IMG/VR virus record: IMGVR_UViG_3300037108_000012
Span: 8,888-72,887 of that record
Length of the DNA stretch: 64,000 nt
Direction: 5' to 3' (one strand)
From: a virus
The first letter of the stretch is position 1. Every line of letters starts with the position of its first letter. The notes below the pieces were generated by a model, which searched no databases, was not told the DNA's origin, and saw only the letters and a program-made list of their open reading frames with translations. Shown here in pieces: positions 677 to 47,767 of this stretch. The translations under genes and the position numbers were made by a program.

Positions 677-1246
677 TTATTCGAGTGATTCTTTGATTGA
701 CTCCAGTATTGACTTTGGCAGGTCCATCAATTCTTCATCGTCCAAGCCGTTCCACCATGAGAGCCGCTGTGAATCGTCCAAGCCGTTCCACACTGAGAGC
801 CGCTGTGAATCGTCCAAGCCGTTCCACACTGAGAGCCGCTGTGAATAGGTCAAGCCGTTCCACCATGAGAGCCGCTGTGAATCGTCCAAGCCGTTCCACA
901 CTGAGAGCCGCTGTGAATAGGTCAAGCCGTTCCACCATGAGAGCCGCTGTGAATCGTCCAAGCCGTTCCACCATGAGAGCCGCTGTGAATAGGTCAAGCC
1001 GTTCCACCATGAGAGCCGCTGTGAATCGTCCAAGCCGTTCCACCATGAGAGCCGCTGTGAATCGTCCAAGCCGTTCCACCATGAGAGCCGCTGTGAATCG
1101 TCCAAGCCGTTCCACACTGAGAGCCGCTGTGAATAGGTCAAGCCGTTCCACACTGAGAGCCGCTGTGAATAGGTAAAGCCGTTCCACTTGCTTACTCGCT
1201 CGGCTAAGAGTGTTTTGATCTGTGCTACCAGTTCGCTTTTATTCAT
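677..1246 (-). CDS. 12-aa tandem repeat protein, WNGL(DD/TY)SQRLS(W/V)
   Basis: AGGAGG RBS; unique N- and C-caps around 12.5 in-frame repeats. Confidence 0.75.
   Translation of the reverse strand: MNKSELVAQIKTLLAERVSKWNGFTYSQRLSVWNGLTYSQRLSVWNGLDDSQRLSWWNGLDDSQRLSWWNGLDDSQRLSWWNGLTYSQRLSWWNGLDDSQRLSWWNGLTYSQRLSVWNGLDDSQRLSWWNGLTYSQRLSVWNGLDDSQRLSVWNGLDDSQRLSWWNGLDDEELMDLPKSILESIKESLE
737..1186. repeat. 36-bp coding tandem repeat, 12.5 copies, two dimorphic sites
   Basis: unit tccaagccgttccaccatgagagccgctgtgaatcg with variants atcgtc/ataggt and ccatga/cactga. Confidence 0.97.
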
Positions 1247-1296
1247 TGCTCGCGCCTCCTATGCGCGTAGGAATCAATTTGGTTTTCTATCAAAGG

Positions 1297-1464
1297 TTAG
1301 GCCGCTGCCGTTCTGCAAGGTTCGCAATAGTTCAGCATTCCCGGCCTATTTTCGGTTTCCTTGCCGCATCCAATACATATAACGGTAGGATGATCCTTCA
1401 GCGATTGCTTAACGTAATCGTCCCATAACTGGAGTGGTTTAGTTGGTGGACGTGGAATTTTCAT
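1297..1464 (-). CDS. small zinc-ribbon protein (55 aa, not in ORF track)
   Basis: MKIPRPP...CIGCGKE...YCEPCRTAAA; GGGAG RBS. Confidence 0.55.
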   Translation of the reverse strand: MKIPRPPTKPLQLWDDYVKQSLKDHPTVICIGCGKETENRPGMLNYCEPCRTAAA

Positions 1465-41699: not shown

Positions 41700-42487
41700 T
41701 GAAAAAGCTAACATCTATCCTTCTTCTTTGGATGCTGCTCTTCGTGCAGCAGGCTGCGTTCGGTCAGCAGATTATTTCCGGGCGGCATCGGAAGATATTT
41801 ACGGCCACCGGCAGCCCAACTTACGTCGGCTACACCTACTGCCCCAGAACATATAGCGGCTCAACGGCCACGTCCACGGCTACCTGTGGTGGCGGAGGTA
41901 CTTTGACTGTTGCTGTTGGGGATGTAATTGTAATGGAGTGCGGAACTGACACTTATAGTGTAGGGCAGTCGGTTGTAAACCTATCGGACAGCAACGCCAA
42001 TAGCTACACACTAGGAGGAGATACCAGCAGCGCGTCTTATTACAGGGAATATAGCCGAGGCGGGTGGGCGGTTGCTTCTACGGCAGGAGCTACAAACTTT
42101 ATTTGTACGATGACCAATGCGACAGGCGATGTCAACTTTGCGGTGGTTGTTTACAGAGGGCTTCTTGGCACCGTCGATACATCTTTGGCCAGCAATCTTT
42201 ACCCTAATTCAGGGTCATTCTTGACATCATCTTTTACCACGACGGTCAAAGACCTTGTAATAGTTTGCGCTTCTTCGGGAGATGCAAACGCAGGTGGTAT
42301 CTGGATGGCAGGACTCATACAAGGGTCAACTGGTTCCGTTGTAGGCGTAAGTGGAGCAACACTAAGTACTAGCTCATTAACAGGATGCGAGGCCCGACTG
42401 AATAGTAGTTTTGGCAGCGGCACAGCAGCAATGACATACGGAGGGCGTGGAGATTATGGGTACCAAGTACTCGCCTTCAAGTATTAG
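41699..42487 (+). CDS. exported beta-rich protein, putative fibre accessory
   Basis: MKKLTSILLLWMLLFVQQAAFG-Q; GDVIV and SDSNANSYT motifs. Confidence 0.65.
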   Translation: MKKLTSILLLWMLLFVQQAAFGQQIISGRHRKIFTATGSPTYVGYTYCPRTYSGSTATSTATCGGGGTLTVAVGDVIVMECGTDTYSVGQSVVNLSDSNANSYTLGGDTSSASYYREYSRGGWAVASTAGATNFICTMTNATGDVNFAVVVYRGLLGTVDTSLASNLYPNSGSFLTSSFTTTVKDLVIVCASSGDANAGGIWMAGLIQGSTGSVVGVSGATLSTSSLTGCEARLNSSFGSGTAAMTYGGRGDYGYQVLAFKY

Positions 42488-42711
42488 TTGACAGCGGGGC
42501 AAATTACAACGGCTTGCGGAACAGCGCTATAGGGCAAGCAGAGCATGGACGTGGGATGGGATATTCACACAGAGTGTCCCAACGCTCGGAACCACGGTAG
42601 TATTGGCAGGAACAAACTTTGCCGCTGTTGGCGGCGTTTCTGTGCAGATGTTTGTGATTAAGTAGCACCCGTTAGAGTCCAGTTGGAGATTTTCAGGAAT
42701 GGGGTAAGCGA

Positions 42712-42993
42712 ATGTCGGAAACGACGATAGCGGAATTGGCAAAAGAGGCGCGCGAAGACGACCGGGCATGGAAGCGTCAGATCGAAGGGACAATCGAGGG
42801 CGTGCGCAACACCATCAATGAACACGGTCAGACACTTGCGGAAATCAAAGCCAATACATCACCGTTGCCAGATTTACACCGTCGCCTCCGAGACACCGAA
42901 AGCTCCACGAGTAATTTGTGGACAGTGCTCAGAGTCACATGGGCTGTGATTGTGGCTCTTGTCGGCGCAACATGGCTTTGGACCAAGCATTAA
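42712..42993 (+). CDS. coiled-coil protein with C-terminal TM helix (XhlA/holin-like)
   Basis: C-terminal hydrophobic helix, lysis region. Confidence 0.6.
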   Translation: MSETTIAELAKEAREDDRAWKRQIEGTIEGVRNTINEHGQTLAEIKANTSPLPDLHRRLRDTESSTSNLWTVLRVTWAVIVALVGATWLWTKH

Positions 42994-43005
42994 AGGAGAC
43001 CCACT

Positions 43006-43284
43006 GTGACCGTAACCGTGACCGTGATGGAACCAGCTTGCAAGGCGGATGCAGTTGAGGCCCAACGCGCCTCCAGAATCATCAACGGACTCTACAACGC
43101 CTGCCACATCAAAGCCATGCGTGCCATCCTGAAAGAGATTGGTAGACCTGCCTGGATATGGGCCAGCCGGAACCAGTTATTCGCGGCAATCATCACCGCG
43201 CGGCAGGACGCTTCCATGTTGAACCCGAAGCGCGACGCGGAGCTGGCAGAAAACCTGAAAAAGGCTATTGACAGATGGGTGTGA
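43006..43284 (+). CDS. hypothetical protein
   Basis: AAGGAG RBS, 92 aa. Confidence 0.55.
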   Translation: MTVTVTVMEPACKADAVEAQRASRIINGLYNACHIKAMRAILKEIGRPAWIWASRNQLFAAIITARQDASMLNPKRDAELAENLKKAIDRWV

Positions 43285-43297
43285 TTGTGCTTACAAT
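43268..43297 (+). promoter_or_regulatory. sigma70-like promoter
   Basis: TTGACA-18-TACAAT, ending 7 nt before an ATG (leaderless). Confidence 0.65.
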
Positions 43298-43304
43298 TGC
43301 ATAC

Positions 43305-43439
43305 ATGGCTGACGATTGCATGGTGCGAGTGCCCCGGCACCTGTTCGAGGAGATCAGGCGATTGGCCCACCCTGCGACAGCGGCGGCGTATTTGCGCCAT
43401 GTGATCGAGCAGCATATCGAGCAAGCACGGAAGAAGTGA
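43305..43439 (+). CDS. 44-aa ribbon-helix-helix-like regulator (not in ORF track)
   Basis: MADDCMVRVPRHLFEEIRRLAHPATAAAYLRHVIEQHIEQARKK. Confidence 0.6.
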   Translation: MADDCMVRVPRHLFEEIRRLAHPATAAAYLRHVIEQHIEQARKK

Positions 43440-43444
43440 GACGG

Positions 43445-43545
43445 TCACGCAAGACGGGCAAACTTTCCATAGTGCGCAGTTGCCGCTTCGCAGTAGAGTT
43501 TGTAGGCTTCAACAGCGGTGGAACGATGGCCCAAACGAAAACTTT
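43445..43545 (-). pseudogene. AP2-domain C-terminal remnant of an HNH-AP2 gene
   Basis: RLGHRSTAVEAYKLYCEAATAHYGKFA resembles SLGTFSSELEAHLRYCEKAKELFGEFA of 45509. Confidence 0.6.
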
Positions 43546-43578
43546 GTCGCCCCCCACGCGGGGGGCGTGGATTGAAAC
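43546..43578 (+). CRISPR. solitary type I-C-like CRISPR repeat (not an array)
   Basis: GTCGCCCCCCACGCGGGGGGCGTGGATTGAAAC, 8-bp hairpin and ATTGAAAC end. Confidence 0.85.
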
Positions 43579-43830
43579 AATCATCGGCAGGGCGGTGAAA
43601 GGCCGTCTGACAGCATGGAAAGACAGCAACTTGCGCGGGAGCGCCCGGACTCCGAACAGGACATCGGGATCGGAACTCACCAAATGCGGCCCGCGCAAAG
43701 AGATTGAGTCGCTGGCGTGGATGTGCTTGCAGGCTGCGGCGAAAGCCGGATACCGACCACGACGGTAGCCTGGAAATTAAGCGGCGGTGAGCAGCGATGC
43801 AAGCCGCCGCAAAGCAAAGGAGCAAGCATC

Positions 43831-44052
43831 ATGAAGAACTGGAAAACAACTACGGCGGGGCTGCTAGTGGCATTAGCATACGGCCTGCAAAACTATAACG
43901 GAGCAAACACTTGGCAGGGATATGCTGTATGTTTCTTCCTTGCTGCCGGTGGATTCTTCTCCAAGGATTACAACACGCATTCAACGGAGGCCCAAGTGCA
44001 AACGGCCACGGATGATGCCAAGGTTGCCACGCTGGCTGCTGTCAACAAGTGA
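43831..44052 (+). CDS. holin-like membrane protein
   Basis: MKNWKTT..G, two hydrophobic segments, ..SKD motif. Confidence 0.65.
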   Translation: MKNWKTTTAGLLVALAYGLQNYNGANTWQGYAVCFFLAAGGFFSKDYNTHSTEAQVQTATDDAKVATLAAVNK

Positions 44053-44059
44053 GGCCGCA

Positions 44060-44437
44060 ATGACCAGTACATCATCGTGCATTATCATCTACCCATGCAC
44101 CGCAGCATTAGGGATGCTTGCCCTTCTTAATGCTGGCTTCAAGCAACGGGGCAAGCAGTGAGGCCGCGATGAGACATATTCTCTCTATGGTCCTACAATT
44201 GCTTTGCTTTGCGACTATCATGGGGCTTTGTGGGTTTTCGCTATGGCGCGATTTTTTGCGTTTCCGCAATATGTGGCGTGAAATTAAGGAATACCGAGAT
44301 TCGGACCAGTAACCAGAAGCAAAGGAAGTGAGGCCGAGATGAATCGCAAATCAGTCTACCTGCTTGTCGGCATCACGTATTGGCTCTGCGTCATTGTCGC
44401 ATTTGCGAAGATGATGCAGGGTATCGGAAACCAGTAA
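44060..44437 (+). other. array of three small single-TM ORFs (44060-44161, 44169-44312, 44339-44437)
   Basis: each preceded by AGTGAGGCCG(nn)ATG; each has one hydrophobic helix. Confidence 0.55.
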
Positions 44438-44463
44438 CGCAGCACAACCCGCAAAGGAGACCT

Positions 44464-44976
44464 ATGAAGCGAATCTCTGTATTTACCATCATCATGCTGG
44501 CAGCTTTCGCTATGCACGCGCAGACCACCACCCCATCATTATCCGCGACTACTGACGCCGTGGGCATCCACGAAGCGGGCGCGTGGGCCGCTGCCACGCA
44601 TATTACTGAGTCGCTGGACTTGGTTGATTTCGGCGCGAAGAAGACGAACCATTTCTATGTCGATGGTCATGAGATTTTGGCCGAAGCGTCCAACTTCACG
44701 CTCTATACTGGGGGAGGTTCCATTCAACCGGACTTGAGCGCCTTATGGAAAAAGACAAACATTTCCTCAGACAACATCAGCATTTTGTTTTCCGTTTCTG
44801 CCGGCGACAAGATTCCGACCGGGATAGGATCGGCTCACATTGCTGGTTTGTTCAGCGGGTCTTTCCGCTATCGAGCATCCAGCACTTTGACGTGGAACAC
44901 GCTGCAAGCCGGGGCGATCCTGAGCGCTGGCAAGGTAAGCCCGTTCGTTTCCACGGGCCTCGTCAAGTATTTTTAG
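44464..44976 (+). CDS. exported protein, putative outer-membrane beta-barrel
   Basis: MKRISVFTIIMLAAFAMHA-Q; alternating beta pattern; C-terminal YF. Confidence 0.6.
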   Translation: MKRISVFTIIMLAAFAMHAQTTTPSLSATTDAVGIHEAGAWAAATHITESLDLVDFGAKKTNHFYVDGHEILAEASNFTLYTGGGSIQPDLSALWKKTNISSDNISILFSVSAGDKIPTGIGSAHIAGLFSGSFRYRASSTLTWNTLQAGAILSAGKVSPFVSTGLVKYF

Positions 44977-44984
44977 GAGGCACC

Positions 44985-45212
44985 ATGGCAATTCTCACAG
45001 AACTGGCTGGTTTGGTCACTGATGCCCGCGCTCTTGTTCAGGCGTGGACGCTAGTGGCTCCCAGCGTCAAAGCGGCTGCGGACGCGGCAACGACCGACAT
45101 AATCAAACTCGGCACGACCGAAGACACTATCACTGCGGAGATTCCTCAAGCCCAGGCCAGCGTGCAAGAGGTTGCGGACGCGGCGAAGAACTTCAAAATC
45201 AAGGTGCTTTGA
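44985..45212 (+). CDS. hypothetical Ala-rich protein
   Basis: AGGAGG RBS. Confidence 0.6.
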   Translation: MAILTELAGLVTDARALVQAWTLVAPSVKAAADAATTDIIKLGTTEDTITAEIPQAQASVQEVADAAKNFKIKVL

Positions 45213-45372
45213 TGGCACCCACAGAGGTCCCAAGATGAAGTGGTGGCAGCGTATAGGATGGCTGATTACCTGGCCAATCGGCAAGCTGACAGGAATCAGC
45301 AGGATCAACAAACCATAGGGGCTGCTGCATGAGGCATGGGGCCCGGCCCCGAATAAGTTGCGCGGTTGATAT

Positions 45373-45457
45373 GGTGGGTTGCCAGAGAGGTTTAATGGCG
45401 TGACGTGCAAAGGTTAAATCCTGTCACGATTCGTTGGTCCGAATCCAACACCCACCA
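45373..45457 (+). tRNA. tRNA-Cys(GCA)-like with an 11-nt anticodon-loop insertion
   Basis: acceptor GGTGGGT/ACCCACC, D arm CCA/TGG, anticodon stem GTGAC/GTCAC, T arm GTTGG-TCCGAAT-CCAAC. Confidence 0.7.
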
Positions 45458-45476
45458 GAGAACCGCGCATTTTCAC

Positions 45477-45508
45477 AGCCGCCTGTTCTCATGTGCAGGC
45501 GGCTTTTG
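45477..45508 (+). terminator. intrinsic terminator
   Basis: agccgcctg...caggcggct followed by a T run. Confidence 0.7.
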
Positions 45509-45979
45509 TTATTCAAAACAAGCAAATTCTCCAAACAACTCTTTGGCCTTCTCGCAATATCTGAGATGAGCCTCTAGCTCAGAAGAGAAAGTTCCGAGAC
45601 TGATTGCTTTACCATTATGAAAAATGGTTGACCAATATCTTTTACCTTGCCTGTATGCCCCTTTTAGTGATCCGTCGTTTCTCTTTCCTTTAGAGTTTCT
45701 GTTATTTTGTGATACTGTTGCAATACGAAGATTAAATCTCCTATTATCTAAGGTATTATGATTTATATGATCCCCTTTGAGGGGAGAATCTTTTTCTATC
45801 CCAAGGATTATTCTGTGCATACGAATAGATGGACTATACCCTCCGTTTCTTTTATCGTTTCTCACGGCATAAAATAAGCCCCTTCTTGAATGCGCGTACC
45901 ATTTCCACTGCATCAGCCAATCGTAATCAGCGGCATCAACAATGGCAACCTTTATAACAAGGAGATGAGATGAATTCAA
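45509..45979 (-). CDS. HNH-AP2 homing endonuclease (5' end possibly truncated)
   Basis: AIVD..DY, MHRIIL, DHINHNTLDNRRFNLR, AP2 C-terminus. Confidence 0.82.
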   Translation of the reverse strand: MNSSHLLVIKVAIVDAADYDWLMQWKWYAHSRRGLFYAVRNDKRNGGYSPSIRMHRIILGIEKDSPLKGDHINHNTLDNRRFNLRIATVSQNNRNSKGKRNDGSLKGAYRQGKRYWSTIFHNGKAISLGTFSSELEAHLRYCEKAKELFGEFACFE

Positions 45980-46401
45980 GCCAAAACTGCCGGAATCAGA
46001 TAATGCAATGGGAAGGCACCAAATTGTCTATCTATTCAGATGCAAATGGTTTTCCAACAGTGGGGATAGGCCACAAACTCACGCCCGCAGAGATTGCCAC
46101 GCACGCCTATGCGAATGGCATCACAACCGGGCAGGCTGTGATTCTCTTCGACGATGACATTGCGAGCTTCGATGCGCAGATCAATTCGCTCTTCGACGAT
46201 AGACATTTGACGCAGGGGCAGTTCGATGCTCTTGTAAGTTTCTGCTACAACAATGGGTTTGGGCGACTGCGCACGATGCTCTCGCATGGGCTGGCGAATG
46301 TGCCGAACGAGTTGCCGCGTTGGGTGTACGCCGGGACGGTAAAGCTCCCCGGCCTGGTCACGCGGCGTGCGCAAGAGGTTGCGTGGTGGAATCAGAAGTA
46401 A
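45970..46401 (+). CDS. endolysin, GH24 lysozyme
   Basis: EG...Y.D..G.PTVGIGH, QFDALVSF.YN.G, GLVTRRAQE. Confidence 0.93.
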   Translation: MNSSQNCRNQIMQWEGTKLSIYSDANGFPTVGIGHKLTPAEIATHAYANGITTGQAVILFDDDIASFDAQINSLFDDRHLTQGQFDALVSFCYNNGFGRLRTMLSHGLANVPNELPRWVYAGTVKLPGLVTRRAQEVAWWNQK

Positions 46402-46536
46402 AATCCAAAAAAGAGACATGGTGTAGCGCCATAGCAGCGGAATAAAAACTTGCATTTTGATTGAAAGTTTGTGTTAAACTGATTCCATCGGGAGAGGAGA
46501 GCGCGGGCTTGTCTCTATTTTTGTTTGGAGGTTGAG

Positions 46537-46737
46537 ATGCCATCAAGCGTTGTTATGGAAGAATTTCGGGAAGGAAAACTTCACTCTGGAAAGAAAGTGA
46601 AGGGGAAGAAACGTAAGTTAGTTCATAATAAAAAGCAAGCTAAGGCTATTCTTCTCTCGTATCTCCGTAAAGAGGGGAAAATAGTACCGCGCAAAGGAAA
46701 TAACACAAATCAAAAGAAACGTGTGGCTGGAAAATGA
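46537..46737 (+). CDS. basic mini-protein (DUF6496-like) ending KRVAGK
   Basis: VMEEFREGKLHSG...KQAKAILLS. Confidence 0.75.
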   Translation: MPSSVVMEEFREGKLHSGKKVKGKKRKLVHNKKQAKAILLSYLRKEGKIVPRKGNNTNQKKRVAGK

Positions 46738-46895
46738 GTGAAATCGAATCATGCACACTTGAGAGCGTAGGAAAAGGACGCAAGAGGGTTGCGGGGAAAA
46801 TGAAGACGAGAATGCCTTACGCGAAAAAAGGAAGTAAATTTGAGTTTGCAAAGAAAAGCGGAAAAGGTAAGCGTTTTTCTACGAAGAAAGGTTAA
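46734..46895 (+). CDS. 53-aa basic mini-protein containing KRVAGK (not in ORF track)
   Basis: ATGA-coupled; MSEIESCTLESVGKGRKRVAGKMK...STKKG. Confidence 0.6.
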   Translation: MSEIESCTLESVGKGRKRVAGKMKTRMPYAKKGSKFEFAKKSGKGKRFSTKKG

Positions 46896-46897
46896 AG

Positions 46898-47767
46898 ATG
46901 AAGAGATTTTTGTTGATTTCTCTCCTTTTGGTATGCGGGTTAGTTGCACACGGACAAGCCTGCTCGCCTGTGAACGGAATGACTTGCACCCCGAACCTCA
47001 ACTTGTACCTTCCTCCGCTCAACTATCAGAACTGGAACATCGCTCTCAATGCAAACTTCAACTTGCTCGATACCTCGTCGGCTAATTGGGTAAAGTTGAA
47101 CGCCTTAAACACGTTTACCCAAATTCAGACTATGCCAGGTCTGGTTATTACTGGAGCGCCGTCAGGAACTTACGCCAAAGCGGATGGTACAGGCTACGGG
47201 ACTCCTGCGGGAAACACCCCATGTACTATAGGACAGTTAGCTTACTATGCATCTGGTGGAGCGGTACAAGCCTGCTTGAATCTAGGGACAGGATTAACTA
47301 TCACAAGTGGAACGCTCAATGCGGCAGGAGGTAGCGGGGGCATCACCCAACTGACAGGAGATGTTAACGCAACCGGACCTAACATTGCAACGGCAACATT
47401 GACGGCGAGTGGAGTGACAGCGGGAAGCTATACCGGGGCAACAATCACGGTAGACGCAAAGGGACGAGTGACGGCTGCGGCAACAGGGTTCACTTCGGGA
47501 AGTAATACTAACGGTTACTGGGAAAAAAGCCCGACAGGGCACATCCATCAATGGGGATTAACCACTGTTTCCAGCTCTACAACAACAATCACATTTCCGA
47601 CACCGTTTACAATTTTGGCCTCAATAATTCCTAGCGGTAGTCCATTAGGAACCACATCGCAACCATCAGCAGATAATCCTCCGTTGTTTTGGAATGTGGG
47701 GTTGAATGGTATGTCAATAAACACCAATAGCTCGACGGGGGCTAGTTGGACAGCCGACGGATATTAG
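46898..47767 (+). CDS. tail fibre protein with Sec signal peptide
   Basis: MKRFLLISLLLVCGLVAHG-Q; TPNLNLYLP...WNIALNANFNLLD anchor; SGVTAGSY..ATITVDAKGRVTAA; NGYW...QWG gp53-like tip. Confidence 0.8.
   Translation: MKRFLLISLLLVCGLVAHGQACSPVNGMTCTPNLNLYLPPLNYQNWNIALNANFNLLDTSSANWVKLNALNTFTQIQTMPGLVITGAPSGTYAKADGTGYGTPAGNTPCTIGQLAYYASGGAVQACLNLGTGLTITSGTLNAAGGSGGITQLTGDVNATGPNIATATLTASGVTAGSYTGATITVDAKGRVTAAATGFTSGSNTNGYWEKSPTGHIHQWGLTTVSSSTTTITFPTPFTILASIIPSGSPLGTTSQPSADNPPLFWNVGLNGMSINTNSSTGASWTADGY

What the first reader, a model, noticed from the sequence alone, without database searches (positions are those of the whole stretch)
43268..43722. Promoter, leaderless RHH gene and solitary type I-C CRISPR repeat: candidate RNA anti-CRISPR (Racr) module
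Seen: TTGACA-18-TACAAT drives an unannotated 44-aa RHH-like ORF (43305-43439). About 105 nt later lies one near-canonical I-C repeat (43546-43578, 33 nt, perfect 8-bp hairpin, ATTGAAAC end). There are no cas genes or array. A hairpin-less echo, gtcgctggcgtggat, occurs at 43708. Established: solitary repeat units in phages can act as Racrs that titrate Cas proteins, often under Aca repressors, and some Acas are RHH proteins; Cas5d processes I-C hairpins. Inference: this is a Racr against host I-C Cascade, or a single-guide mini-array whose downstream approx. 34 nt (aatcatcggcagggcggtgaaagg...) redirects Cascade. The ORF at 43006 is an Acr candidate by proximity only.
Basis: partly seen in the sequence, partly recalled or inferred. 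Interest (0 to 1): 0.82.

Follow-up and report, generated by a model that had tools for sequence, protein, structure and literature searches.

The report
Lone host CRISPR repeat in phage
A peat-soil phage carries a single, perfect copy of the CRISPR repeat of its likely Acidobacteria hosts, which most likely serves as a decoy RNA against their immune system, a trick already known from other phages.

Summary
Window 43546-43578 (+) is a 33-nt type I-C CRISPR repeat, the only copy in the 72.9-kb viral record. It is 33/33 identical to array repeats in 25 genome stretches, 22 of them Acidobacteriota MAGs, and one of those arrays lies beside cas5d-csd1-cas7-cas4-cas1-cas2. The record has no array or cas genes.

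It fits the known class of viral solitary repeat units (SRU / candidate Racr; RacrIC1 is a validated I-C precedent).

The "module" reading is weakened:
- The promoter, the 44-aa RHH-like ORF and the 92-aa ORF are about 99.5% identical in three sibling contigs. In these, homology stops at 43440 and no repeat follows.
- The repeat's upstream flank is the truncated 3' end of an HNH homing-endonuclease gene on the opposite strand.
- No target was found for a downstream "guide".
- No Acr homology was found.
- No RNA contig bridges the repeat.

Best reading: Racr-type decoy (0.45). Main rival: a recent, neutral recombination relic (0.3).

This is a new member of a known kind. The scan has noted solitary I-C repeats in other phages before.

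The parts
43546..43578 (+). Solitary type I-C CRISPR repeat (SRU). Stem 43548-43555/43560-43567, loop ACGC, then the 11-nt would-be 5' handle TGGATTGAAAC at 43568-43578.
   Evidence: It is 33/33 identical to array repeats in 25 genome stretches. The hairpin forms in the MFE and centroid folds of 43440-43830 and 43305-43660. The 11-nt handle and the Cas5d cut at the 3' base of the stem are recalled knowledge of I-C systems, not tested here.
43268..43297 (+). Sigma-70-like promoter TTGACA-18-TACAAT, embedded in the 3' end of the 92-aa ORF.
   Evidence: 11 of 12. An identical site is present in the SRU-less sibling L032 at 1537-1566.
43284..43321 (+). Possible operator. Direct repeat GCTTACAATTGCAT (43289-43302) / GCTGACGATTGCAT (43308-43321). 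Palindrome CAATTG (43294-43299). 5-bp inverted repeat ATTGT-N4-ACAAT (43284-43297) over the -10 box.
   Evidence: for the direct repeat and the palindrome. The 5-bp inverted repeat was read. Short motifs; significance not established.
43305..43439 (+). 44-aa ORF with no Shine-Dalgarno sequence, RHH-like by predicted topology. The alternative start at 43275 gives 54 aa.
   Evidence: AF2: pLDDT 88.3, coil 1-10, helices 11-19 and 23-43. Homodimer model with antiparallel contacts of residues 5-9. ESM Atlas lead. No family hit.
43006..43284 (+).
   Evidence: self plus one marginal hit among 1.84 billion representatives. AF2 gives four helices, pLDDT 75.3. No Foldseek match at E <= 0.001.
43445..43546 (-). 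Truncated 3' end of an HNH homing-endonuclease gene (last ~30-33 codons plus the stop at 43445-43447). It is cut off at the repeat.
   Evidence: BLASTP against the phage's own HNH endonuclease (45509-45976, minus): 12/30 identical, residues 123-152 of 155, E 9e-5 for the single comparison. phrog_99, the same profile region, E 0.12 (compare).
43441..43779 (+). Allele-specific cassette that holds the SRU. Sibling contigs have different sequence here.
   Evidence: The fold of 43440-43830 has z = -2.83.
43687..43709 (+). 23-nt island identical in the SRU-less allele (L032 1864-1886). Its CCCGCGCAA pairs with TTGCGCGGG at 43631-43639.
43708..43722 (+). Echo GTCGCTGGCGTGGAT: the repeat's first 5 nt and 9 nt of its 3' half, without the hairpin and without TGAAAC.
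   Evidence: Not a functional repeat as judged from its sequence.
43780..44052 (+). Conserved hairpin (43781-43810), ribosome-binding site and 73-aa membrane (holin-like) ORF at 43831-44052. Homology with sibling L032 resumes here.
   Evidence: Relatives of the 73-aa ORF in 3 IMG/VR loci. 'Holin-like' is inferred from its position before the endolysin and its hydrophobic sequence.

Best explanation
The 33-nt unit is a solitary copy of the type I-C CRISPR repeat of the phage's probable Acidobacteriaceae hosts. It most likely acts as an RNA anti-CRISPR (Racr) decoy.

Proposed mechanism, all inferred:
1. The repeat is transcribed on the + strand. The source is read-through from the near-consensus promoter at 43268-43297 through the 44-aa ORF, and/or the surrounding rightward operon.
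2. It folds into the authentic 8-bp hairpin.
3. Host Cas5c (Cas5d) binds it and cuts at 43567/43568.
4. This leaves an RNA with a true 11-nt 5' handle but no proper spacer or 3' hairpin.
5. Cas5c/Cas7/Cas8c are drawn into non-functional complexes, which lowers interference against the phage.

Shown here: the identity of the repeat, its solitude, its sense orientation, the matching host subtype, and the presence of its unique flanks in RNA libraries.
For: Identity and host match:
- 33/33 identity to array repeats in 25 genome stretches, 22 of them Acidobacteriota MAGs.
- One such array (L003) lies next to Cas5d, Csd1, Cas7, Cas4, Cas1 and Cas2, which is type I-C.
- Csd1 was found in 17 of 301 sampled genomes of that family.

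Solitude:
- One copy in the window and in the record.
- No cas genes.
- No second repeat at array spacing; the best flank match is 18/33, which is background.

Geometry:
- Same strand as all neighbouring genes.
- A promoter matching 11 of 12 positions lies 250 nt upstream.
- No terminator-like site lies between that promoter and the repeat; all 3 such sites in 42500-44500 lie at 42619-42636.
- The repeat hairpin forms in the MFE and centroid folds of both tested transcripts.

Precedent (PMC10651486, passages read):
- RacrIC1 lies 11 nt behind a small ORF, is co-transcribed with it and inhibits I-C.
- 2,103 viral SRUs were reported, and 83% of prophage SRUs match the host subtype.

Same repeat family elsewhere: 33 of 43 IMG/VR stretches hold a single unit, and 22 of those 33 have no other repeat core in the locus.

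RNA libraries of three studies, labelled peat or wetland:
- They hold allele-specific flank pieces: 43417-43527 (X2), 43412-43479 (X4) and 43646-43803 (X3).
- All four runs hold repeat-spacer-repeat contigs of host arrays.
Against: - Three sibling contigs are 99.1-99.5% identical up to 43440 and then lack the repeat. The unit is dispensable and recently gained or lost, so its perfect sequence cannot be read as purifying selection.
- It abuts a truncated homing-endonuclease gene. That looks like a rearrangement junction rather than a built unit.
- No promoter lies directly in front of it, although published SRUs often have one.
- No known acr gene lies nearby.
- None of 794 distinct spacers from host and viral arrays matches the window beyond 16 nt. 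Targeting of this phage by I-C is therefore not shown.
- RNA libraries can contain DNA, and contigs show neither strand nor ends.
Confidence: 0.45

Rival explanations
1. Neutral relic. A piece of host CRISPR DNA (one repeat) was captured recently by illegitimate or microhomology-driven recombination in a stretch that is turned over by homing endonucleases. It has no function and will decay.
For: - The homology break with siblings falls at 43440, 4 nt from the stop of a truncated HNH-endonuclease remnant that ends at the repeat.
- The repeat-less allele coexists at about 99.5% identity upstream.
- There is no dedicated promoter.
- A hairpin-less echo 129 nt downstream suggests past rearrangement.
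- Neither a target nor an acr partner was found.
Against: - The flanks resemble no host leader, trailer or spacer among 25 array loci. They match nothing in 5 host genomes, and 41700-43545 matches nothing in 301 family genomes.
- A random capture from an array would usually bring spacer-repeat periodicity, and none is present.
- The orientation is the productive one.
- Solitary units of this repeat family recur in many unrelated viral contigs, as the literature reports.
- A gene call that covers 43717-44049 of this allele is on record for 9 JGI contigs. The allele is therefore not a one-off.
Confidence: 0.3
2. Single-guide RNA. The repeat supplies the 5' handle and the next ~34 nt (43579-43612) act as a spacer. 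That spacer would either silence host cas or toxin promoters (Cracr / viral crlRNA) or direct host Cascade-Cas3 against a competing sibling phage allele.
For: - Published viral crlRNAs can consist of one repeat-like unit plus a spacer-like stretch, and I-C examples exist (bioRxiv 10.1101/2024.10.29.618823; abstract, section 7 and passages read).
- Earlier notes of this scan describe one-repeat guides against siblings on other DNA.
- Only one sibling allele could be sampled here.
Against: - No TTC plus a PAM-proximal match of 9 nt or more in 395 kb of 15 host cas loci and 25 array loci. The best seed was 7, with 10 hits against a mean of 15.8 for shuffled spacers.
- Only chance-level matches in 5 host genomes.
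- No TTC-flanked seed of 9 nt or more in 987 kb of all fetched loci, siblings included.
- One IMG/VR hit to the first 23 nt (positions 6, 12 and 18 left free) lies in a coding gene behind TAA, not TTC, and does not extend.
- There is no downstream hairpin to end a crRNA.
Confidence: 0.08
3. Cas-dependent processing site for the phage's own RNA. The repeat lets host Cas5c cut the transcript between the RHH-like gene and the lysis genes, which would couple phage gene expression to the presence of the host system.
For: - The repeat sits between a promoter-proximal small gene and the holin-like gene, inside a strongly folded 390-nt non-coding stretch (z = -2.83).
- Earlier scan notes on other phages proposed similar uses.
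Against: - Siblings manage without it.
- Only 17 of 301 sampled family genomes have Csd1, so such control would fail in most hosts.
- No data on RNA ends at the repeat.
Confidence: 0.07
4. Artefact or coding sequence. Either the assembly is chimeric at the repeat, or the repeat is merely part of the open frame 43316/43526-43768.
For: - Open frames run across the repeat on both strands.
- Repeats break assemblies.
Against: - Both flanks are non-array sequence, and the far side returns to the phage backbone shared with L032 at 43780-43835.
- Independent RNA-library contigs cover 43417-43527 and 43646-43803 at 100% identity.
- The open frames have no family hit and are not on record as gene calls.
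- 33/33 identity to a CRISPR repeat is not a coding coincidence.
Confidence: 0.03

Closest known systems
RacrIC1 and viral solitary repeat units (SRUs / Racrs; Faure 2019 as cited in, and Camara-Wilpert et al. 2023, PMC10651486)
   Same: - A single CRISPR repeat on a virus, without an array or cas genes.
- The subtype (I-C) matches the predicted host.
- Sense orientation downstream of a small ORF and a promoter, as for acrIC5-racrIC1.
- The same repeat family (GTCGC...GCGTGGATTGAAAC).
   Different: - The unit lies 106 nt, not 11 nt, behind the ORF, and that ORF is not a known Acr.
- No promoter lies directly upstream.
- It sits in homing-endonuclease debris and is missing from near-identical siblings.
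- Host phylum is Acidobacteriota.
- Activity is untested.
- This record may already be among the 2,103 IMG/VR3 SRUs of that paper's supplementary data. I could not check, because supplements are closed.
Viral crRNA-like regulatory RNAs (Cracr; Liu et al., bioRxiv 10.1101/2024.10.29.618823)
   Same: One repeat-like unit followed by unique sequence on a phage. I-C cases are reported.
   Different: The defining match of at least 9 PAM-proximal nt to a host cas or toxin promoter was sought and not found. The repeat here is perfect rather than degenerate.
Aca14, a ribbon-helix-helix anti-CRISPR-associated regulator (bioRxiv 10.64898/2026.07.27.740549)
   Same: A small protein predicted to form an RHH-type dimer, encoded at a promoter that has short repeats over the -10 box, next to a candidate anti-CRISPR element.
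   Different: - No sequence comparison with Aca14 was possible, as no sequence was on hand.
- No RHH family hit.
- The gene and promoter persist unchanged in siblings without the repeat, so they are not tied to it.
Virus-borne mini-CRISPR arrays
   Same: Host-type repeat on a virus without cas genes.
   Different: A mini-array needs two repeats around a spacer. Here the only second element is a 15-nt hairpin-less echo 129 nt away.

Membership tests
Viral solitary repeat unit (SRU) | Sequence matches a known CRISPR repeat | tested here: met
   33/33 identity to array repeats in 25 genome stretches. Rfam CRISPR-DR9, E 0.003, below the gathering score.
Viral solitary repeat unit (SRU) | Not associated with other full or partial repeats (no array) | tested here: met
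   One copy at up to 3 mismatches in the window and the record. The best other 33-mer in the flanks is 18/33, which is background. Caveat: a 15-nt echo at 43708.
Viral solitary repeat unit (SRU) | On a virus or plasmid, with no cas genes nearby | tested here: met
   IMG/VR record with tail-fibre-sized ORFs, an endolysin and an HNH endonuclease. No Cas5d, Cas7 or Csd1. The record is 64% complete.
Viral solitary repeat unit (SRU) | Intergenic position | tested here: inconclusive
   No supported gene covers it. However, it touches a pseudogene remnant on the minus strand, and open frames run across it.
Racr (functional RNA anti-CRISPR) | Expressed as an RNA that contains the repeat | tested here: inconclusive
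   Unique flank pieces are present in RNA libraries of three studies. Contigs show neither strand nor ends, and DNA carry-over is not excluded.
Racr (functional RNA anti-CRISPR) | Host carries the matching CRISPR-Cas subtype | tested here: met
   Arrays with the identical repeat lie beside a I-C cas operon. The host is predicted from the repeat only.
Racr (functional RNA anti-CRISPR) | Binds Cas proteins and lowers interference | not testable with these tools
   Needs a Cas5c/Cascade binding or cleavage assay and a plaque or plasmid-rescue assay.
Cracr / viral crlRNA | Spacer-like part with at least 9 PAM-proximal matches to a host cas or toxin promoter | tested here: not met
   The best TTC-flanked seed was 7 nt in 395 kb of 15 cas loci and 25 array loci, at chance level. 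Only a sample of hosts was searched.
Mini-CRISPR array | Two repeats flanking a spacer of about 32-37 nt | tested here: not met
Ribbon-helix-helix (CopG/Arc/MetJ) regulators, Aca14-like | Match to RHH family profiles | tested here: not met
   No Pfam or PHROG hit at E <= 1. NCBIfam RelB-like at E 0.088, 13 bits against a cut-off of 50. No RHH among the PDB sequence hits.
Ribbon-helix-helix (CopG/Arc/MetJ) regulators, Aca14-like | N-terminal strand then two helices, with a dimer through an antiparallel strand pair | tested here: inconclusive
   - AF2 monomer: coil 1-10, helices 11-19 and 23-43, pLDDT 88.3.
- ESMFold2 homodimer score 0.52 against 0.00 for the best of 3 controls. That mark was reached by 21 of 30 proteins solved as pairs of one chain and 0 of 23 solved as single chains. 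The runs agree in at least 97% of contacts, and partner pLDDT is at least 82.
- Closest contacts are 7-7, 6-6, 9-5 and 33-33.
- RHH dimers are much solved, so the pass may reflect likeness only.
- Foldseek and VIA-align gave no RHH match.
HNH(-AP2-type) homing endonuclease (the remnant at 43445-43546, minus strand) | Similarity to the C-terminal domain of an intact family member | tested here: met
12/30 identical to residues 123-152 of the phage's own HNH endonuclease, E 9e-5 pairwise, and both end 3 residues after 'FA'. phrog_99, E 0.12, positions 236-265. No HNH catalytic part is recognisable, so it is a fragment. Pfam gave only HNH_3 for the intact gene.

The most novel reading that the evidence does not exclude
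The repeat plus the ~34 nt that follow it would be a protein-free, one-guide competition or homing element lodged in a homing-endonuclease insertion site. It would borrow the host's I-C Cascade-Cas3 to cut a not-yet-sampled sibling allele (for example one with the intact endonuclease gene), so the cassette would spread at the siblings' expense.

The evidence does not exclude this, because only one alternative allele could be sampled. No target was found in anything searched.
Probability: 0.06. Interest if true: 0.7.

Novelty: new member of a known kind. Interest (0 to 1): 0.35.

Why it matters
If active, this would be an RNA anti-CRISPR in a phage of Acidobacteriaceae, abundant but poorly studied peat and soil bacteria. 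My one literature search turned up no anti-CRISPR work on their phages: 8 papers hold 'acidobacteri', 'anti-crispr' and 'phage', and none of the 7 listed is about it, judged from the listing only.

The practical value has three parts:
- The repeat gives a host prediction for an uncultured virus.
- Nature supplies near-isogenic phages with and without the unit, about 99.5% identical upstream. That is a ready-made comparison for testing the cost and benefit of a Racr in field time-series.
- Its position at a truncated homing-endonuclease gene hints at how such units are gained and lost.

The mechanism class itself is already established, so a specialist would not be surprised.

Tried and rejected
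**Searches that found nothing**
- Host spacers against the phage. 140 spacers, then 866 spacers, 794 of them distinct, from host and viral arrays. Nothing matched beyond 16 nt, which is chance level.
- Flanks against host DNA. No likeness to leaders, trailers or spacers of 25 array loci beyond 5 nt next to the repeat. Only chance matches in 5 host genomes. 41700-43545 was found in 0 of 301 family genomes. That search rang nowhere, so it proves little.
- Flank likeness to other viral SRU loci: none.
- A hidden repeat in the sibling cassette. Rfam found none. An ATTGAAAG-ending 23-mer of L032 was absent from 301 family genomes.
- Alignment of the two cassette alleles. It is not better than shuffles; 84 of 500 reach the score. 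A tempting 'clean insertion of the repeat' picture from a global alignment is therefore not claimed.
- Further endonuclease remnants. A possible second remnant on the minus strand (43673-43756, E 0.14) and a plus-strand one in L032 (E 15) are not significant.
- Relatives of the remnant: none.
- Relatives of the 92-aa and the 44/54-aa ORFs: only their own 90% clusters.
- Fold searches for both small proteins gave nothing usable.
- A codon-usage test could not tell coding from non-coding for these short ORFs.
- GC content of the cassette is not unusual.
- Integration-site idea: no tyrosine integrase or resolvase in the record, which is 64% complete.

**RNA evidence**
- No listed contig joins a unique flank to the repeat. 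Every contig on 43545-43579 is a host repeat-spacer-repeat piece. With contigs this is no evidence of absence.
- No silent control stretch could be laid, because the cap is one call.

**Not available**
- Supplements of PMC10651486 were not available. I cannot say whether this record is already in its SRU list.
Full report
**What is there**

The window is bases 8888-72887 of a 72,887-b IMG/VR virus record with a CheckV completeness estimate of 64. At 43546-43578 on the + strand lies GTCGCCCCCCACGCGGGGGGCGTGGATTGAAAC.
- It has an 8-bp G+C stem (43548-43555 / 43560-43567) and a 4-nt loop.
- The stem is followed by 11 nt, TGGATTGAAAC. From recalled knowledge of type I-C systems, these would form the crRNA 5' handle after Cas5d cuts at the base of the stem.
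- It is the only match at up to 3 mismatches in the window (0 of 100 shuffles give any) and in the whole record.
- Matches to its 3' 14-mer at up to 3 mismatches are at chance level: 6 found, 6.06 expected.
- Rfam places CRISPR-DR9 on exactly these bases: 26.8 bits, E 0.003, below the gathering score of 45.

**Whose repeat it is**

An exact-match scan of one genome per prokaryotic species returned 25 stretches. 22 come from Acidobacteriota MAGs (Acidobacteriaceae, Terracidiphilus, Granulicella, Edaphobacter by record title), mostly as arrays of up to 31 exact copies per stretch listed. Three are single copies in other phyla.

In locus L003 the array lies directly behind genes that match Cas_Cas5d, Cas_Csd1, Cas_Cas7, Cas4, Cas1 and Cas2 (E 6e-45 to 1e-158). 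That is a type I-C operon. Csd1 was found in 17 of 301 sampled genomes of that family.

The viral record has no Cas5d, Cas7 or Csd1. The unit is therefore a solitary, perfect copy of a host I-C repeat on a phage. The host link rests on the repeat alone:
- None of 794 distinct spacers from the fetched arrays matches the window beyond 16 nt.
- No prophage-like DNA was found in 301 family genomes.

**Surroundings on the + strand**

All supported genes around the unit run rightward:
- a 1,272-aa tail-fibre-sized ORF and further large ORFs;
- a 93-aa membrane ORF;
- a 92-aa orphan ORF (43006-43284);
- the 44-aa ORF (43305-43439);
- then 390 nt without a supported gene;
- a 73-aa membrane ORF (43831-44052) and, further on, an endolysin (Phage_lysozyme, E 3e-27).

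TTGACA-18-TACAAT at 43268-43297 matches 11 of 12 consensus positions. The ATG at 43305 follows the -10 box by 7 nt and has no Shine-Dalgarno sequence, so a leaderless message is plausible but inferred. No terminator-like site lies between the promoter and the repeat. The repeat hairpin forms in the MFE and centroid folds of 43305-43660 and 43440-43830. The latter folds better than all 100 shuffles, z = -2.83.

**The small proteins**

The 44-aa protein has no Pfam, PHROG or NCBIfam family; the best is RelB-like at E 0.088, far below the cut-off. In 5.8 billion proteins it has no relative outside its own 90% cluster.
- AlphaFold2 without an alignment gives an extended N-terminus and two helices, pLDDT 88.3.
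- A two-copy ESMFold2 model scores 0.52 against 0.00 for the best of 3 controls. That mark was reached by 21 of 30 proteins solved as pairs of one chain and 0 of 23 solved as single chains. The runs agree in at least 97% of contacts, and partner pLDDT is at least 82.
- Its tightest contacts pair residues 5-9 of the two chains in antiparallel, and helix 2 with helix 2. This is the ribbon-helix-helix arrangement. Such dimers are common among solved structures, so the pass shows likeness only.
- The ESM Atlas lists two RHH_1-bearing clusters at ranks 9-10, score 0.92, but only 152-153 shared features.
- Fold searches found no RHH.
- I keep 'RHH-like' as an inference.

Short repeats lie over the -10 box and the start codon: GCTTACAATTGCAT / GCTGACGATTGCAT and CAATTG. 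They would suit an autoregulator. A preprint describes an RHH Aca, Aca14, whose inverted repeat overlaps the -10 box (10.64898/2026.07.27.740549, passages read).

The 92-aa ORF is an orphan. It found itself plus one marginal hit among 1.84 billion representatives, and its four-helix model matches nothing at E <= 0.001.

**Siblings without the repeat**

A metagenome scan with the 92-aa ORF returned three contigs, L030-L032.
- They match the window at 99.1-99.5% identity over 529-1,709 bases.
- In all three the match stops at 43440, one base after the stop codon of the 44-aa ORF.
- The promoter and the 44-aa protein are unchanged there.
- What follows is different sequence with no CRISPR-family match.
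- Two islands are shared: a 23-nt identical stretch (window 43687-43709) and, in L032, the hairpin, ribosome-binding site and start at 43780-43835.

So the repeat sits in a roughly 340-nt allele-specific cassette. The promoter, RHH-like gene and 92-aa ORF are not tied to it.

The allele is not a one-off:
- A gene call covering 43717-44049 is on record for 9 JGI contigs.
- RNA-library contigs from other studies reproduce 43417-43527 and 43646-43803 exactly.

**What the upstream flank is**

I tested it.

On the minus strand, 43457-43546 translates to a peptide with 12 of 30 residues identical to residues 123-152 of the phage's own 155-aa HNH endonuclease (45509-45976, minus). The pairwise E-value is 9e-5, and both end three residues after 'FA'. 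The peptide also touches the same part of phrog_99, HNH endonuclease, at E 0.12 (compare).

The remnant's stop codon (43445-43447) lies 4 nt from the homology break at 43440, and its coding sequence is cut off at the repeat. The cassette border is therefore the end of a homing-endonuclease gene, a mobile kind of gene. The repeat sits at the point where that gene is truncated.

Further remnants, and a 'clean insertion' picture, did not pass controls.

**Testing the guide readings**

The 36 nt after the repeat were scanned for TTC plus PAM-proximal identity:
- In 395 kb (15 host cas loci fetched around Csd1, plus 25 array loci), the best seed was 7 nt. There were 10 hits against a mean of 15.8 for shuffled spacers.
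- In 5 whole host genomes there were only chance-level matches.
- In 987 kb of all loci, including the siblings, there was no TTC-flanked seed of 9 nt or more.
- An IMG/VR scan with the first 23 nt (every sixth base free) gave one hit. It lies inside a coding gene, behind TAA, and does not extend.

No second repeat lies at array spacing; the best is 18/33, which is background. The echo at 43708-43722 is statistically real but lacks both the hairpin and the handle. The mini-array and Cracr readings are therefore unsupported. The Cracr criterion of at least 9 PAM-proximal matches comes from bioRxiv 10.1101/2024.10.29.618823, section 7.

**Expression**

Twenty RNA libraries hold part of 43000-44100. 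I laid the four best, which are contigs only.
- All four contain 96-98-nt repeat-spacer-repeat contigs. Host arrays with this repeat are thus represented in the same RNA libraries as the phage.
- Phage-specific pieces cover both flanks of the repeat, as listed above.
- Contigs cannot show strand, ends or level, and DNA may be present in such libraries. I treat this as presence only.

**Comparison with what is known**

Viral solitary repeat units are a described class. The paper reports 2,103 on viral sequences, including IMG/VR3, often behind a promoter and enriched near acr genes. 83% of prophage SRUs match the host's subtype. RacrIC1 lies 11 nt behind an acrIC5 homologue, is co-transcribed with it and inhibits type I-C (PMC10651486, passages read).

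My own IMG/VR scan with a pattern for this repeat family found 43 stretches. 33 have a single unit, and 22 of those have no other repeat core in the locus.

The present unit meets the SRU criteria. Racr membership needs function, which cannot be tested here.

**Verdict**

This is a new member of a known kind. It most likely acts as a I-C decoy RNA (0.45), and a recent neutral capture at a homing-endonuclease junction is a serious rival (0.3). The 'module' with an Aca and an Acr is not supported as such. Interest is moderate to low (0.35). The useful extras are the host prediction, the natural with/without sibling pair, and the endonuclease context.

Noticed in passing
window 43440-43441: In two RNA runs of different studies (X2, X4), several short contigs end at 43441 and run straight into sequencing-adapter letters. 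Other pieces (43417-43527, 43412-43479) run on. The place coincides with the homology break between sibling alleles and lies one to two bases after the stop of the 44-aa ORF. It may be an RNA end or an assembly-graph effect; contigs cannot decide.
   Followed up: partly
window 43631-43639 / 43690-43698, and L032 1711-1718 / 1868-1875: The 23-nt island shared by both cassette alleles contains CCCGCGCAA. In each allele this can pair with a TTGCGCGG(G) placed at a non-homologous position: 50 nt away in the window, about 150 nt away in L032. This is a possible conserved stem of unknown role.
   Followed up: partly
L041/L080 (IMGVR_UViG_3300017989_000161) and L059/L056 (IMGVR_UViG_3300029267_003234): Two related viral contigs each carry two different solitary I-C-type repeats with conserved flanks. 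One of the repeats lies directly behind a TTGTCA-17-TATAGAAT-like box. Such a conserved pair of solitary units would make a better test set for selection on SRUs.
   Followed up: no
L011 73-105 (Terracidiphilus MAG contig): A single exact copy of the repeat in a host contig, with no second repeat in the 72 nt before it or the 170 nt after it. It lies next to beta-propeller / BNR-repeat protein genes rather than cas genes. It is an orphan repeat in a host genome.
   Followed up: partly
L004 2591-2688: A host one-spacer mini-array (two exact repeats, 32-nt spacer) behind a leader like that of L017. It may be a newly founded or regulatory array.
   Followed up: no
window 45373-45457: Another first-reader note reports a tRNA-Cys-like gene here. 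ARAGORN finds no tRNA in 42000-47000.
   Followed up: partly
window 45509-45979 (minus): An intact 155-aa HNH homing endonuclease (HNH_3 E 1e-5; phrog_99 E 1e-27) sits between the lysis-region ORFs, 2 kb from the truncated copy. The stretch between the tail fibres and the endolysin appears to be a landing zone for such genes.
   Followed up: partly
L032 3628-3918 and window 737-1300: The end of sibling contig L032 matches the window's 12-aa repeat protein region (90-95% identity, many registers). The sibling genome is therefore arranged differently or is circularly permuted.
   Followed up: no
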